From Flavobacteriales bacterium (GTDB lineage Bacteria; Bacteroidota; Bacteroidia; Flavobacteriales_D; Sanyastnellaceae), in assembly GCA_947466425.1 (NCBI GenBank), contig CANIBZ010000008.1, positions 6,406-70,405 of the forward strand: 64,000 nucleotides of DNA, read 5' to 3'. A program made the position numbers and the translations under genes. A model generated the notes under the pieces. It made no database searches. It was not told the origin of the DNA and was given only the letters and a program-made list of their open reading frames with translations. Shown here one piece after another: positions 11,518 to 13,566 of the stretch. The number at the start of each line of letters is the position of its first letter. The stretch's first letter is position 1.

Positions 11518-13566
11518 TTACAATTTGACAAATCTAATAGAGTTTCCCTTACTTGTGGAATTAAATGGATGAATGGTATAAACGCCGGAAGAAAGGTCAG
11601 AAACTTCAAGTGTATTCCAAACATTCAGACTTAAAGCAGAAATAATCTTAATGGTTCTTCCTGTTGCATCTTGAATAGCAACATGAGTTGTGCCCTCACT
11701 CAACGCATTAACACGCAAACGAATTTCATTCGATGCTGGATTCGGAAATACTTCGGTTGATGTCGTGAGAAGATTAGTGAGTTCCGATACATTTATCCCC
11801 TGAACGCAAGATCCGTATACATAGGAAGGAATTCTTTCCGCGTTGTTGTTAATGATATCTACAACTTCATCTATACAAATTTCATTATTCCCATAATTTG
11901 CTAAATAAACTCGGCACAAGCTGATGGGGGAAAAACTGTTCTCGATTTTATTTCCGTAAATATTGGAGACGGCGAAAACAGATTCTGTAAAGGTGTTGAA
12001 TCCTGTTTCACAACTGAAAATAGTAGGATCTATTAAACTAGAAACTCCAATAACGTCTGCACCTGAAACTTCAAATTGATAGGCAGTTACATCATCAATC
12101 GCGCTGACCAATTCAACATCTATATATCCTTCAGTATCATTAAAATTCGAAATAGACAAACCTGCTGAAGTGTTCACATTCACTATGTTTCTAGGAAAAT
12201 CGCATGCGTTCGTAAGAGTAGAACCGCCATTTCCACCGTTCATGCACCATTGTGCTAAAAATATATCATAGACAGAAATTTCACCATTTGCATTTAAGTC
12301 ATTGCAAGTTGTTGCGATAATACTTTCTTGCGATAAAATTCCCATATAGACACTAACATCTGACACATTTAAATCGTTATCTGGATTAACATCTCCAAAA
12401 ATTGATGGCCCGTTACACATGCCATTGCAATCCAATTCAGCCGATCCGTTCAGGTTTCCCGCACAATCCACGTATGAAGGGCAATCTGACATTAATTGAA
12501 ACGTTGGTACTCCATTGTTCCAAAAAATTTCTAGGCAAATTGAAACCGCATTGTTCTGTGTGTTGCTCTCATATCTACCTAAAGCATCAGGCAAGTAGTT
12601 GGGGTTTACCAATGCTACGAAGCGGTATTGACCTGCTGGAATTTCAGTAATATCTAGCCATTGGCATTGTGTACCGGCGCCATAGACATCGTAACATCCT
12701 GAGGATATTCCCATGTCTGAACAATTGTACTGACCCATGCCGCAAAGATCCATGACACAGAATCCGTTTTTATGCCCTACAGGAACCAAATCTCCATTGG
12801 AATCCATTAATCTATAATCACCATAACCTTCGTAGTGGGCATGACCATGACAATTCACAGTGCTAAACATTTGAGGATTTGATGCTGGATTTCCTATGTA
12901 ATAATCGGCTTGTCCGATGTTGTCAATTTTAGAGCTAAATCCGATGATCCATCGATTTCCATACCCTGTAACACAGCCCTCCTGAATATCGCAACTAGCT
13001 GCAGCAATTTGACTAATGTAAAGTGAATTCACTAGGGCCAAACTGTCAAATCTCAAATCGGGTTGCGAGCAAAGGTCACTTGGAAAAAATGCACATGAAC
13101 CGTCATCAGCAGTAGCCATTGGATTGAAATTACACGCCGTTGGATTTGTACAGCCGAAAATTTGACCCTGGTAAGAAATACTAAAATTTACCGAAGCGGG
13201 ACAGTCTGTATAATAATCACCAATTCTAATAAAATAGGTTGTTCCCGCAATGAGGTTTACCTCGAGGTAAGCCTGCAAACCACAATAATCATCGTTGTAA
13301 GAATAAGTCCCTTCGGCCCACTCAGTGGGAGCCGCAATGCACGCTGAATAAACCCAAATTTTGGTATCGCAACTGTTGCTTCCACAAGTTGAAATGACCG
13401 TAATTCCTGATTCACTCGGAGTATAGGTATACCAAGTATCTTCGAAATCCGCTACATAACTTCCGATTGTTGTTAGTGGAATGGGATTATCGCAAGTTGT
13501 TCCTTGCTGCGCATGAACCGATAGTATCAGAGCAACACCTGCAAAAAATAAAATTAGTTTCTTCAT
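11518..13566 (-). CDS. Secreted lysyl-oxidase-like copper amine oxidase domain protein with dockerin-like repeats and a T9SS C-terminal sorting domain
   Basis: 682 aa with a signal peptide. Residues ~168-345 match the LOX catalytic domain by eye: [26 protein letters not shown] and [25 protein letters not shown]. Dockerin-like [16 protein letters not shown] and [15 protein letters not shown]. The C-terminal [14 protein letters not shown]...GVYTI is a T9SS CTD. Confidence 0.8.
   Translation of the reverse strand: [682 protein letters not shown]

What the first reader, a model, noticed from the sequence alone, without database searches (positions are those of the whole stretch)
11518..13566. 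Lysyl-oxidase catalytic domain in a T9SS-sorted, dockerin-bearing bacterial secreted protein
Residues ~168-345 align by eye with the animal LOX catalytic domain at every functional landmark. [16 protein letters not shown] matches SCHQHYHSMDEFSHYDL (copper His triad). [10 protein letters not shown] matches GHKASFCLED (the Lys that forms the LTQ cofactor). [25 protein letters not shown] matches [25 protein letters not shown] (the segment supplying the LTQ Tyr, plus disulfide Cys residues). The protein also has a signal peptide, two dockerin-like Ca-binding loops ([16 protein letters not shown] and [15 protein letters not shown]), and a canonical T9SS C-terminal sorting domain. LOX is best known as a metazoan extracellular-matrix cross-linking enzyme. 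Prokaryotic homologues are sporadic and almost uncharacterised. A T9SS-delivered LOX fused to a scaffold-docking module suggests enzymatic cross-linking or oxidation of lysines on the cell surface, in a biofilm matrix, or on host or prey proteins.
Basis: partly seen in the sequence, partly recalled or inferred. Interest (0 to 1): 0.7.

Follow-up and report, generated by a model that had tools for sequence, protein, structure and literature searches.

The report
Secreted bacterial lysyl oxidase, multidomain
This gene from an uncultured freshwater Bacteroidota bacterium encodes a secreted, apparently catalytically intact relative of the animal collagen-cross-linking enzyme lysyl oxidase; it belongs to a large conserved family that is already auto-annotated in databases, but its biological role has never been studied.

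Summary
ORF 11518-13566 (minus strand, 682 aa) matches Pfam Lysyl_oxidase (E=3e-25) and human LOXL2 by sequence (33% identity) and by fold (Foldseek E=2e-13). The Cu-binding His triad (H240/H242/H244) and the LTQ pair (K266/Y295) are invariant in 121 of 121 relatives. Four Ca-site residues are also invariant, and four catalytic-domain disulfides are conserved in 113-121 of 121. The T9SS C-terminal domain passes both curated cut-offs. The dockerin-like segment fails Pfam's cut-off, but a domain profile hits solved dockerins (E=5e-5).

About 115 of 148 diverse representatives keep the same ordered core.

The family is not sporadic. At least 270 species-level Bacteroidota genomes carry it; the 80 listed are all MAGs. 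LOX in Bacteroidetes was reported in 2015.

Most likely this is a T9SS-exported copper/LTQ amine oxidase that acts on protein lysines or other primary amines outside the cell. Marked Lys depletion of the mature protein is compatible with this. The substrate is unknown.

MbnP/MbnH copper-protein genes lie next to LOX in two lineages. I rate it a new variant of a known kind, of moderate interest.

The parts
13510..13566 (-). Signal peptide, aa 1-19 ([19 protein letters not shown], then QQ). It looks like a Sec/SPase I type with Gln at +1.
   Evidence: Read directly from the sequence. In the model it is helix 2-17 with low pLDDT. No signal-peptide predictor was available.
13156..13503 (-). N-terminal beta-sandwich, aa 22-137. 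It has the fold of the pre-peptidase C-terminal (PPC) / collagen-binding domain of clostridial collagenases and six conserved Cys.
   Evidence: Model of aa 20-165: pLDDT 94.3. Foldseek against PDB: B. anthracis collagenase PPC 5SV5 (E=5.8e-4, TM 0.69), ColG s3b 1NQJ/2O8O/4HPK/1NQD (TM 0.63-0.69), ColH s3 3JQW, PliG 4DZG (E=1.2e-4). There is no sequence-level hit in Pfam or PDB.
13069..13155 (-). Cys-rich linker module, aa 138-166 ([23 protein letters not shown]...C). It is an unannotated module of about 28 aa that some relatives carry in several copies.
   Evidence: Invariant C139, C145, C158 and C166. A local HMM finds 1-4 copies in relatives. No Pfam hit.
12517..13068 (-). Lysyl oxidase catalytic domain, aa 167-350. 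Cu-binding His240/242/244; LTQ precursors Lys266 and Tyr295; Ca-site D170, L171, E333, N335, N338, N339; Cys pairs equivalent to the LOXL2 disulfides.
   Evidence: Pfam PF01186 E=3.2e-25. LOXL2 5ZE3: E=3e-21 for the single sequence and 7e-28 for the family profile. Foldseek E=2e-13. Residue map and conservation. BLASTP 33% identity.
12403..12516 (-). Post-LOX Cys-rich segment, aa 351-388 (…[21 protein letters not shown]…).
   Evidence: Invariant C362, C368, C380 and C384. A local HMM finds it in most relatives, between LOX and the dockerin. No database annotation.
12226..12402 (-). Dockerin-like module, aa 389-447. It has two F-hand Ca-binding loop-helix repeats ([12 protein letters not shown] and [12 protein letters not shown]).
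   Evidence: Domain profile A3 against PDB: 5LXV_B dockerin E=5.2e-5 and CelS dockerin E=0.005; most of the 24 hits are dockerin modules. Pfam Dockerin_1 is sub-threshold here (E=0.29) and matches 8 of 14 relatives (best 0.0017). Predicted helices 401-411 and 432-442.
11791..12204 (-). Cohesin-like beta-sandwich, aa 455-592, directly after the dockerin-like module wherever both modules were detected.
   Evidence: Fold evidence only. Foldseek of the full model hits the cohesin+FN3 structure 2W1N (E=3.6e-7, prob 1.0) and type I cohesin 2CCL_A (TM 0.51, 154 columns, prob 1.0). There is no sequence hit. The fixed dockerin-then-cohesin order is shown. Foldseek did not report which residues were aligned, so assigning these hits to this domain is an inference.
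11521..11760 (-). T9SS type A C-terminal sorting domain, aa 603-682 (seven predicted beta-strands). The stop codon is at 11518-11520.
   Evidence: PF18962 E=1.2e-9, 38.8 bits against 27. TIGR04183 28.7 bits against 23. The family profile hits solved T9SS CTDs 5JVK, 8GLK_D and 8QB1. Strand pattern.

Best explanation
The gene encodes a multidomain secreted enzyme of an uncultured freshwater Flavobacteriales/Crocinitomicaceae-like bacterium.

Proposed pathway:
1. The protein crosses the inner membrane by Sec (signal peptide aa 1-19).
2. It folds in the periplasm, forms its many disulfides, binds Ca2+ and Cu2+, and self-generates the lysine tyrosylquinone (LTQ) cofactor from K266 and Y295.
3. The type IX secretion system recognises its type A C-terminal domain and exports it. 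The C-terminal domain is normally removed, and the enzyme is then released or anchored on the cell surface.
4. Outside the cell, the LOX domain oxidatively deaminates primary amines to aldehydes, producing NH3 and H2O2. The most likely substrates are epsilon-amino groups of lysines in extracellular proteins.

Proposed roles of the accessory modules: the N-terminal PPC/collagen-binding-like beta-sandwich targets a macromolecular substrate, and the adjacent dockerin-like and cohesin-like modules form a built-in structural or self-association unit rather than docking to a separate scaffoldin.

Shown here: the domain identities, complete conservation of the catalytic, metal-binding and disulfide residues, the T9SS signal, and the conserved architecture. 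Inferred: enzyme activity, periplasmic maturation, substrate class and the roles of the accessory modules.
For: LOX identity:
- Pfam E=3.2e-25; LOXL2 by sequence E=3e-21 and by family profile E=7e-28; by fold E=2e-13; 33% identity.
- The three Cu-His, the LTQ Lys and Tyr, and four Ca-site residues are 121/121 conserved; a fifth Ca-site position is N or D in all 121. Four LOXL2 disulfides have aligned Cys pairs, 113-121 of 121 conserved (reference numbering from PMC5899467).

Secretion and structure:
- The T9SS CTD is above both curated cut-offs and matches solved CTDs.
- The full model is confident: pLDDT 88.1, pTM 0.73.

Accessory modules:
- PPC/collagen-binding-domain fold.
- Dockerin profile match E=5e-5.
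- Cohesin fold match.
- The ordered core PPC-linker-LOX-post-dockerin-cohesin(-CTD) is kept in about 115 of 148 representatives sharing 50% identity or less with each other. Extra domains are added only outside this core.

Lys depletion:
- The mature part has 4 Lys in 581 residues, one of them the catalytic K266, while the cleavable CTD has about 5%.
- Family mature regions have median 0.70% K against 2.40% in other T9SS cargo from the same genomes. K/(K+R) is 0.31 against 0.53. This is what self-protection against lysine oxidation would produce.

Precedent and native origin:
- A prokaryotic LOX (Haloterrigena turkmenica) is an active, BAPN-sensitive amine oxidase that accepts Lys-containing peptides and polymers (PMC6452851).
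- LTQ formation is autocatalytic with Cu and O2 (PMC11951088).
- The gene is native: its GC content is the same as the rest of the window, synteny is stable in close relatives, and the family is spread widely in the phylum.
Against: - No activity, cofactor or secretion data exist for any member of this family.
- No substrate candidate was found. No neighbour is conserved across 80 loci, and no collagen-like ORFs lie near any LOX gene.
- The one characterised prokaryotic LOX has relaxed specificity and oxidises free small amines, so a protein substrate is not guaranteed.
- The PPC-like and cohesin-like assignments rest on predicted folds only, with no sequence-level support.
- Lys depletion comes with lower Arg as well, and it was measured on homologous, non-independent sequences.
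- No T9SS machinery genes were seen among the window ORFs that were scanned.
Confidence: 0.6

Rival explanations
1. The enzyme is an extracellular free-amine oxidase used for nitrogen scavenging and/or H2O2 production. It would deaminate dissolved primary amines (free lysine, polyamines, amino sugars, taurine-like compounds) at the cell surface to release ammonium. The H2O2 by-product might act against competitors or algae. It would not cross-link proteins.
For: The only characterised prokaryotic LOX has relaxed specificity. It oxidises taurine, glycine, beta-alanine, GABA and aminoglycosides, and its authors proposed a role in obtaining nitrogen from unusual amines (PMC6452851). The hosts are planktonic freshwater Bacteroidota (record titles; samples). 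No protein substrate, collagen-like gene or conserved partner lies next to the gene.
Against: The strictly conserved PPC/collagen-binding-like, dockerin-like and cohesin-like modules are typical of enzymes that work on polymers or surfaces; a soluble small-molecule oxidase would not need them. The selective Lys depletion of the mature enzyme is more easily explained if protein lysines are substrates.
Confidence: 0.25
2. The dockerin docks the LOX onto a separate cohesin-bearing scaffold protein on the cell surface, in a cellulosome-like assembly, and the enzyme works from there.
For: The dockerin-like module has two canonical Ca-binding F-hand repeats and profile similarity to solved dockerins. 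Cohesin-dockerin systems are the known role of such modules.
Against: The dockerin-like module is immediately followed by its own cohesin-like module in about 115 of 148 diverse representatives, and one relative duplicates the pair as a unit. No other ORF with a dockerin-like or cohesin-like module (family-derived HMMs) lies in the 64 kb window or in the flanks of 80 related loci. A T9SS CTD already provides surface attachment. The Pfam dockerin score is below threshold.
Confidence: 0.1
3. The LOX-like domain is a catalytically inactive binding or structural module, or the gene is a recent eukaryote-derived transfer or contaminant without a native role.
For: The native function of prokaryotic LOX has been called cryptic, and expression of the archaeal enzyme is very low (PMC6452851).
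Against: All catalytic, Cu-site and LTQ residues and four Ca-site residues are invariant in 121/121 relatives that share only 44-90% overall identity, which indicates purifying selection on catalysis. GC content equals that of the flanks. The gene carries a Bacteroidota-specific T9SS signal. The family occurs in at least 270 species-level Bacteroidota genomes with a conserved architecture. The exact protein recurs on 16 independent contigs with the same neighbours.
Confidence: 0.04

Closest known systems
Animal lysyl oxidases, in particular the human LOXL2 catalytic domain (PDB 5ZE3; Pfam PF01186)
   Same: Same fold (Foldseek E=2e-13) and 33% sequence identity. It has the same Cu-binding His triad and the same Lys/Tyr LTQ precursor pair. 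The Ca2+ site is the same except for one Asp-to-Asn position and one position matched only by eye. Four LOXL2 disulfides have aligned Cys pairs. Like the animal enzymes it is secreted and disulfide-rich.
   Different: It has no SRCR domains and no LOX propeptide. Instead it has a PPC/collagen-binding-like domain, a dockerin-like and a cohesin-like module, and a T9SS sorting domain. The extra 'first' His of the animal Cu motif is Asn238 here, as reported for bacterial LOX (PMC4448552). Export is by a bacterial outer-membrane secretion system. The substrate is unknown; no collagen or elastin analogue was found nearby.
Previously reported prokaryotic LOX homologues (Grau-Bove et al. 2015; Haloterrigena turkmenica HTU-LOX, Pestov et al. 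2019)
   Same: It belongs to the same Pfam family with a bacterial-type Cu motif. Bacteroidetes were already listed among the LOX-bearing phyla. HTU-LOX shows that a prokaryotic LOX can be an active, BAPN-sensitive amine oxidase.
   Different: Those reports describe prokaryotic LOX as rare and mostly single-domain. This is a large Bacteroidota family with a strictly conserved seven-module architecture and a T9SS signal, and I found no paper that describes it.
T9SS type A cargo proteins of Bacteroidota (for example gingipains and Flavobacterium secreted enzymes; TIGR04183 / PF18962)
   Same: An N-terminal Sec signal followed by a C-terminal seven-strand sorting domain that passes the curated cut-offs. 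The modular layout (catalytic domain, then beta-sandwich domains, then CTD) is typical of such cargo.
   Different: The catalytic module is a copper/quinone amine oxidase rather than a hydrolase or adhesin. Its need for Cu and O2-dependent cofactor formation before or after export is unusual for this class of cargo.
Clostridial collagenase accessory domains (ColG/ColH collagen-binding domain, PPC domain PF04151) and cellulosomal dockerin/cohesin modules
   Same: The predicted folds match: TM 0.63-0.69 to the collagen-binding/PPC domains and TM 0.51 to a type I cohesin. The dockerin segment has the two Ca-binding F-hand repeats and profile similarity to solved dockerins.
   Different: The PPC-like and cohesin-like parts have no sequence-level similarity to those families, and the Pfam dockerin score is below threshold. 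The dockerin-like and cohesin-like modules sit side by side in one polypeptide. There is no evidence of collagen binding or of a cellulosome-like scaffold.

Membership tests
Lysyl oxidase (Pfam PF01186; Cu/LTQ amine oxidase) | Significant match to the family profile above the curated threshold | tested here: met
   89.4 bits against a cut-off of 20.4, E=3.2e-25. All 14 relatives scanned also match.
Lysyl oxidase (Pfam PF01186; Cu/LTQ amine oxidase) | Copper-binding His triad (LOXL2 His626, His628, His630) | tested here: met
   H240/H242/H244 align to them and are 121/121 conserved (numbering from PMC5899467).
Lysyl oxidase (Pfam PF01186; Cu/LTQ amine oxidase) | LTQ precursor residues (LOXL2 Lys653 and Tyr689) | tested here: met
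   K266 and Y295 align to them and are 121/121 conserved.
Lysyl oxidase (Pfam PF01186; Cu/LTQ amine oxidase) | Conserved Ca2+ site and catalytic-domain disulfides | tested here: met
   D170, L171, E333 and N338 are 121/121 conserved. N335 is N or D in all 121. N339 was matched by eye only. Cys pairs 192-239, 198-301, 270-282 and 275-291 align to four LOXL2 disulfides. The fifth disulfide (C732-C746) lay outside the aligned segment.
Lysyl oxidase (Pfam PF01186; Cu/LTQ amine oxidase) | LOX catalytic-domain fold | tested here: met
   The AF2 model (pLDDT 88.1) has 5ZE3 as its best PDB match, E=2.1e-13, prob 1.00.
Lysyl oxidase (Pfam PF01186; Cu/LTQ amine oxidase) | Amine oxidase activity, BAPN sensitivity, and an LTQ cofactor actually formed | not testable with these tools
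   This needs expression, Cu loading, an activity assay, a phenylhydrazine adduct and MS.
T9SS type A cargo | C-terminal sorting domain above curated cut-offs | tested here: met
   PF18962 38.8 bits against 27 and TIGR04183 28.7 bits against 23. The family profile hits solved CTDs 5JVK, 8GLK_D and 8QB1. Seven predicted beta-strands at aa 603-681.
T9SS type A cargo | N-terminal Sec signal peptide | tested here: inconclusive
   A typical n-h-c region and VHA|QQ site are seen by eye. No signal-peptide predictor was available.
T9SS type A cargo | The host encodes T9SS machinery, and secretion depends on it | not tested
   No T9SS component was seen among the window ORFs scanned. Its presence is inferred from the Flavobacteriales/Bacteroidota affiliation of the closest genomes.
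Dockerin (Pfam PF00404, type I) | Profile match above the Pfam gathering score | tested here: not met
   11.8 bits against 22.9, E=0.29. Eight of 14 relatives match sub-threshold, best E=0.0017.
Dockerin (Pfam PF00404, type I) | Two Ca-binding loop-helix (F-hand) repeats and similarity to solved dockerins | tested here: met
   Loops [12 protein letters not shown] and [12 protein letters not shown], followed by helices 401-411 and 432-442. Domain profile A3 against PDB gives 5LXV_B E=5.2e-5 and CelS dockerin E=0.005; most hits are dockerins.
Dockerin (Pfam PF00404, type I) | Ca-dependent binding to a cohesin partner | not testable with these tools
   This needs binding assays or a structure.
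Cohesin | Sequence or profile match to the cohesin family | tested here: not met
   No Pfam hit at E<=1 in the window protein or in 14 relatives. Domain profile A4 finds no cohesin in PDB.
Cohesin | Cohesin-type beta-sandwich fold | tested here: inconclusive
   Foldseek of the full model hits 2W1N (E=3.6e-7) and 2CCL_A (TM 0.51, prob 1.0). The aligned residues were not reported, and no domain-only model was searched.
PPC / clostridial collagen-binding domain (PF04151) | Sequence or profile match | tested here: not met
   No Pfam hit at E<=1. Profile A5 finds nothing significant in PDB.
PPC / clostridial collagen-binding domain (PF04151) | Fold match to solved PPC/CBD structures | tested here: met
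   The model has pLDDT 94.3. Matches: 5SV5 E=5.8e-4 (TM 0.69); 1NQJ, 2O8O, 4HPK, 1NQD and 3JQW (TM 0.62-0.69, prob 1.00).
PPC / clostridial collagen-binding domain (PF04151) | Collagen (or other ligand) binding | not testable with these tools
   This needs binding assays.

The most novel reading that the evidence does not exclude
This family may be a dedicated bacterial extracellular protein-lysine oxidation or cross-linking system. A collagen-binding-domain-like module would bring a T9SS-exported LOX onto a proteinaceous target (the cell's own surface or matrix, or algal or prey material). In at least some lineages, copper loading or maturation of the enzyme in the periplasm would be served by an adjacent MbnP/MbnH pair, a kynurenine-dependent copper-binding protein and its MauG-family di-haem partner. 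That would be the first accessory maturation system proposed for any lysyl oxidase. Because the family is large and conserved in one phylum, it would also be a candidate for the bacterial reservoir from which eukaryotic LOX arose.
Probability: 0.15. Interest if true: 0.75.

Novelty: new variant of a known kind. Interest (0 to 1): 0.45.

Why it matters
Lysyl oxidase is a textbook animal extracellular-matrix enzyme. Its prokaryotic relatives are described as rare, mostly single-domain and of cryptic function.

This analysis shows a large family in uncultured, mostly freshwater Bacteroidota. It is at least 270 species-level genomes strong, with a strictly conserved architecture and complete catalytic machinery under purifying selection. 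The enzyme sits between target-binding-type modules and is addressed to the type IX secretion system.

That gives concrete, testable handles on the open question of what bacterial LOX does: defined constructs, point mutants, a candidate targeting domain and a candidate copper-supply partner. It also bears on the origin of the animal enzyme. If the enzyme cross-links or oxidises extracellular proteins, it would add an oxidative protein-modifying activity to the T9SS secretome, and it could be a robust bacterial LOX for biotechnology.

The limits are that the family is already auto-annotated, LOX in Bacteroidetes has been known since 2015, and nothing here demonstrates activity or a substrate.

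Tried and rejected
1. Conserved gene neighbourhood. tblastn of window neighbours and de novo clustering of all ORFs in 80 related loci found no universal partner; the best cluster is in 16 of 81 loci. The recurrent neighbours are heterogeneous: DUF3089, a beta-lactamase-fold T9SS protein, thioredoxin, aldehyde dehydrogenase and penicillin amidase. I concluded it is a stand-alone gene.
2. Collagen-like (GXY, 7 or more repeats) or Lys-rich secreted proteins near LOX genes as candidate substrates. None were found; the Lys-rich ORFs lacked a signal-peptide-like N-terminus.
3. Sequence-level detection of the cohesin-like and PPC-like domains with domain profiles against PDB. Nothing significant.
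4. Pfam scan of the 121-member alignment.
5. Active-site and inter-domain geometry from the AF2 model. Coordinates and PAE are not exposed to the sandbox, so the dockerin-cohesin contact and the K266-Y295 distance could not be measured.
6. Sigma-70 promoter and terminator scan. Nothing above shuffled expectation, and the consensus is not appropriate for Bacteroidota anyway.
7. Literature searches for T9SS-linked or Bacteroidota LOX and for 'bacterial lysyl oxidase'. No relevant paper beyond Grau-Bove 2015 and Pestov 2019.
8. Other dockerin-, cohesin- or CTD-bearing ORFs in the window, using family-derived HMMs. None.
9. A formal phylogeny for HGT was not attempted. The tools returned only the closest relatives and no eukaryotic, actinobacterial or archaeal sequences, and no tree-building program was installed. 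Recent HGT was instead judged unlikely from GC content, synteny and distribution.
10. Direct-coupling analysis for dockerin-cohesin contacts was considered and dropped because there are too few effective sequences.

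
Full report

Yes. The ORF listing returns an ORF at exactly 11518..13566 on the minus strand.

hmmscan against Pfam gives three hits:
- Lysyl_oxidase PF01186: E=3.2e-25 (89.4 bits; gathering cut-off 20.4) over aa 198-342.
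- Por_Secre_tail PF18962: E=1.2e-9 (38.8 bits against 27).
- Dockerin_1: only sub-threshold (E=0.29, 11.8 bits against 22.9).

NCBIfam's T9SS type A sorting-domain model TIGR04183 is also passed (28.7 bits against 23). The only solved structure found by phmmer is human LOXL2 (5ZE3, E=3.1e-21). None of this is a chance resemblance.

**2. Catalytic landmarks**

I took the LOXL2 landmarks from the structure paper (PMC5899467):
- Metal ligands: His626, His628 and His630, plus Tyr689.
- LTQ precursors: Lys653 and Tyr689.
- Ca2+ ligands: Asp549, Leu550, Glu722, Asp724, Asn727 and Asn728.
- Five catalytic-domain disulfides.

I then aligned LOXL2 537-730 to an HMM of the family. The mapping, with conservation in a 121-sequence alignment (44-90% identity to the query), is:

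| LOXL2 | Query | Conservation |
|---|---|---|
| H626 / H628 / H630 | H240 / H242 / H244 | 121/121 each |
| K653 | K266 | 121/121 |
| Y689 | Y295 | 121/121 |
| D549, L550, E722, N727 | D170, L171, E333, N338 | 121/121 each |
| D724 | N335 | N in 113, D in 8 |
| C573-C625 | C192-C239 | 121/121 each |
| C579-C695 | C198-C301 | 113/121 each |
| C657-C673 | C270-C282 | 121/121 each |
| C663-C685 | C275-C291 | 120/121 each |

Asn728 fell outside the aligned block. It corresponds by eye to the invariant N339.

BLASTP of the domain against LOXL2 gives 33% identity over 179 residues (E=3e-29). The family profile against PDB gives E=7e-28.

An AlphaFold2 model built on the 121-sequence alignment is confident (mean pLDDT 88.1, pTM 0.73). 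Its best PDB fold match is 5ZE3 (E=2.1e-13, probability 1.00).

The position of the 'first' His of the animal motif is Asn238 here. This fits the published remark that bacterial LOX lack that His (PMC4448552).

The protein passes it.

**3. The rest of the protein**

The full anatomy is richer.

- **Signal peptide, aa 1-19:** [19 protein letters not shown] followed by QQ. I judged it by eye only.
- **N-terminal domain, aa 22-137:** a beta-sandwich with no Pfam or PDB sequence match. A separate model of aa 20-165 (pLDDT 94.3) matches the pre-peptidase C-terminal (PPC) / collagen-binding domains of bacterial collagenases. These are B. anthracis PPC 5SV5 (E=5.8e-4, TM 0.69), ColG s3b in several entries (TM 0.63-0.69) and ColH s3. 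It also matches structurally related binding modules: PliG, the C. perfringens enterotoxin C-domain and HA70.
- **Cys-rich linker, aa 138-166:** a module of about 28 aa ([12 protein letters not shown]..DDGSC) with invariant Cys. Some relatives carry several copies.
- **LOX domain, aa 167-350**, followed by a **Cys-rich post-LOX segment, aa 351-388**.
- **Dockerin-like module, aa 389-447:** two canonical 12-residue Ca-binding loops ([12 protein letters not shown] and [12 protein letters not shown]), each followed by a predicted helix. Pfam Dockerin_1 stays below threshold in the window protein and in 8 of 14 relatives (best E=0.0017). A profile of this segment alone hits solved dockerins significantly: 5LXV_B at E=5.2e-5 and the CelS dockerin at E=0.005, with most of the 24 hits being dockerin modules.
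- **Cohesin-like domain, aa 455-592:** a beta-sandwich whose only support is fold-level. The full model hits the cohesin+FN3 construct 2W1N (E=3.6e-7) and the C. thermocellum type I cohesin 2CCL_A (TM 0.51 over 154 columns, probability 1.00). Sequence profiles find nothing. Foldseek did not report which residues were aligned, so 'cohesin-like' is a reasonable but not firm label.
- **T9SS CTD, aa 603-682:** seven predicted strands. The family profile matches solved CTDs 5JVK, 8GLK_D and 8QB1.

**4. How common is it, and where?**

The word-indexed search found 1,132 clusters at E<=0.001. The best 120 are all full-length LOX + Por_Secre_tail proteins of 44-90% identity. Some are named 'lysyl oxidase family protein' by NCBI or 'Lysyl oxidase/Secretion system C-terminal sorting domain' by JGI.

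A scan of one genome per GTDB species found 270 genomes encoding a relative. The 80 listed are all MAGs labelled Flavobacteriales, Crocinitomicaceae, Bacteroidia or Bacteroidota. Many come from lakes, reservoirs and rivers.

The exact window protein is already in public collections on 16 contigs, labelled 'hypothetical protein'.

An exhaustive HMMER search with the LOX domain alone, against 1.84 billion representatives, found 2,258 clusters at E<=1e-3 and 244 at E<=1e-30.

I built local HMMs for each module and scanned the 148 new proteins among the 150 listed representatives.
- About 115 keep the ordered core PPC-linker-LOX-post-dockerin-cohesin, usually ending in a CTD.
- Extra domains are added only upstream of the core or between the cohesin-like domain and the CTD.
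- One protein duplicates the dockerin-cohesin pair as a unit.
- Other architectures also exist: simple LOX-...-CTD proteins, and tandem LOX domains in which only the last copy keeps the CHxHxH and GHK motifs.

Most close relatives are about 780 aa because they carry one further N-terminal domain that this protein's subclade lacks.

The gene's GC content (about 0.40) equals that of the window, and close relatives share its synteny. There is therefore no sign of recent transfer.

**5. Genomic context**

The gene lies between a DUF2490 protein plus a small lipoprotein (upstream) and a cytoplasmic Xaa-Pro aminopeptidase (8 nt downstream, same strand). This arrangement holds only in the closest lineage.

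De novo clustering of all ORFs in 80 related loci found no universal neighbour. The best cluster is in 16 of 81 loci, and the recurrent neighbours are unrelated functions. The gene behaves as a stand-alone unit. The rest of the window is housekeeping: BamA, IleRS, FabF, asparagine synthase and a Wzy-like gene.

One lead stands out. An MbnP gene (6268-7026, with a WxW motif 'WYW') and two MauG-family di-haem peroxidase genes (5264-6271 and 4130-5218) lie about 4.3 kb downstream on the same strand.

In a distant lineage whose LOX is only about 45% identical, MbnP and MbnH sit directly upstream of LOX on the same strand, with gaps of about 90 nt (L056 and L067). L060 is cut at the contig end and keeps only the MbnH-like gene next to LOX.

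MbnH converts a Trp of MbnP into kynurenine to create a copper site, and MauG itself builds a quinone cofactor (PMC11951088). Two independent arrangements next to a copper/quinone enzyme are suggestive of periplasmic copper supply. About 70 other loci show no such neighbour, so this stays a lead.

**6. How it most likely works**

*Shown:* a Sec-type N-terminus (by eye), a T9SS type A CTD, a LOX domain with every catalytic, metal and disulfide residue under strict conservation, and a conserved set of binding-type modules.

*From established knowledge:*
- T9SS cargo cross the inner membrane by Sec, fold in the periplasm and are exported by the CTD, which is usually removed. This rests on my own knowledge of T9SS.
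- LOX enzymes use Cu2+ and self-generate LTQ from Lys and Tyr with O2. They then oxidise primary amines to aldehydes, releasing NH3 and H2O2.
- A prokaryotic LOX is active and BAPN-sensitive on Lys-containing polymers as well as on small amines (PMC6452851).

*Inferred:* the enzyme matures in the periplasm, is exported, and oxidises amines outside the cell.

I favour protein lysines as the substrate for two reasons. First, the PPC/collagen-binding-like, dockerin-like and cohesin-like modules are typical of enzymes that work on polymers or surfaces. Second, the mature enzyme is strikingly Lys-poor.
- aa 20-600 contain 4 Lys in 581 residues, one of them the catalytic K266, while the cleavable CTD has about 5% Lys.
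- Across loci, mature LOX proteins have a median of 0.70% Lys against 2.40% for other T9SS cargo of the same genomes. K/(K+R) is 0.31 against 0.53.
- That is what self-protection against lysine oxidation would produce. The sequences are homologous, so the p-value (about 1e-9) is only indicative, and Arg is also somewhat low.

The dockerin-like module is directly followed by the cohesin-like module wherever both were detected. I therefore read the pair as an internal structural or self-association unit rather than a device for docking to another scaffold.

**7. Rivals**

- **Free-amine oxidase for nitrogen scavenging and/or H2O2 production (0.25).** It is supported by the relaxed specificity of HTU-LOX and by the absence of any nearby substrate gene. 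The conserved binding modules and the Lys depletion argue against it.
The obligate adjacent cohesin-like module, the lack of any other module-bearing ORF and the presence of a CTD that already provides anchoring all argue against it.
- **Inactive domain, recent transfer or contaminant (0.04).** The conservation, GC content, distribution and recurrence on independent contigs all argue against it.

**8. Comparison with what is known, and novelty**

As an enzyme, this is a member of the lysyl oxidase family. Every sequence-testable defining feature is met. Only activity and cofactor formation remain untestable here.

LOX in Bacteroidetes was reported in 2015. That survey noted that most prokaryotic LOX are single-domain (PMC4448552). 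Later work calls prokaryotic LOX rare and its function cryptic (PMC6452851).

I found no paper on a T9SS-linked or multidomain Bacteroidota LOX. Databases already auto-annotate the LOX and T9SS domains.

What is new relative to the literature I could search:
- the size and conservation of this family;
- its seven-module architecture, including a collagen-binding-domain-like fold and an in-cis dockerin/cohesin-like pair;
- the Lys depletion of the mature protein;
- the MbnP/MbnH adjacency.

I rate it a new variant of a known kind. It is of moderate interest (0.45): real, well supported and testable, but not a surprise at the level of the enzyme family.

Noticed in passing
window 4130-7026 (-): 6268-7026 MbnP; 5264-6271 and 4130-5218 CCP_MauG di-haem peroxidases. 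Also L056:7768-9586, L067:731-2590, L060:2-874: An MbnP/MbnH-type copper-protein pair, plus a second MauG-family gene, lies about 4.3 kb from the LOX gene on the same strand. In a distant lineage (LOX about 45% identical), MbnP-MbnH sit directly upstream of LOX in an operon-like tandem; L060 is truncated and keeps only the MbnH-like gene. The window's MbnP has a WxW motif (WYW). This may be periplasmic copper supply or maturation help for the copper/quinone enzyme. About 70 other loci lack it within 10 kb.
   Followed up: partly
window 11518-13566 (-), protein aa 20-600 compared with aa 603-682: The mature part of the LOX protein has only 4 Lys in 581 residues (K69, K213, catalytic K266, K540), while the cleavable CTD has about 5% Lys. 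The depletion is family-wide and exceeds that of other T9SS cargo from the same genomes (0.70% against 2.40%; K/(K+R) 0.31 against 0.53).
   Followed up: yes
window 13069-13155 (-), aa 138-166; repeated in relatives such as P0153, P0233 and P0163: This is an unannotated Cys-rich module of about 28 aa (consensus GCTDPxACNYNPxAxxDDGSC) with no Pfam match. Larger LOX relatives carry it in one to four copies, and L052:963-1448 has it in a non-LOX ORF. It appears to be a small disulfide-knotted spacer module of Bacteroidota secreted proteins.
   Followed up: partly
relatives of about 780 aa (for example P0011, P0047, P0119), N-terminal ~100 aa; absent from the window protein: Most family members have an additional N-terminal domain (consensus ...IIPDxxPxExSW...GDGI..PGGY...) that the window's subclade (682 aa) and its 50%-identical sisters lack. 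DUF3244 matches 8 of 14 relatives (best E about 1e-4) somewhere in these proteins; I did not locate the matching region.
   Followed up: no
representatives P0125, P0150, P0159, P0160, P0187 and others: Another LOX architecture has two to three tandem LOX-like domains. In most of those checked, only the last copy retains the CHxHxH Cu motif and the GHK LTQ lysine. The sequences look like they come from high-GC organisms (Ala/Gly/Arg-rich N-termini), so the upstream copies may be degenerate domains.
   Followed up: partly
window 10220-11509 (-): A cytoplasmic Xaa-Pro aminopeptidase gene (Peptidase_M24 + AMP_N) starts 8 nt after the LOX stop codon on the same strand. Co-transcription is possible. 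The adjacency is conserved only in the closest (80% identity or more) lineage.
   Followed up: partly
L024:12564-14126 and 8 other loci: An aldehyde dehydrogenase gene recurs about 0.5-2.5 kb downstream of LOX in 9 of 81 loci (one sub-lineage). LOX produces aldehydes, but this enzyme is probably cytoplasmic, so the adjacency is likely coincidental synteny.
   Followed up: no
window 36245-54679 (+): A long same-strand run of ORFs of about 300-620 aa includes a Wzy/O-antigen-ligase-like protein, an asparagine synthase and an FAD-dependent oxidoreductase. It looks like a surface-polysaccharide biosynthesis cluster. It is 23 kb from the LOX gene, and no link was established.
   Followed up: no
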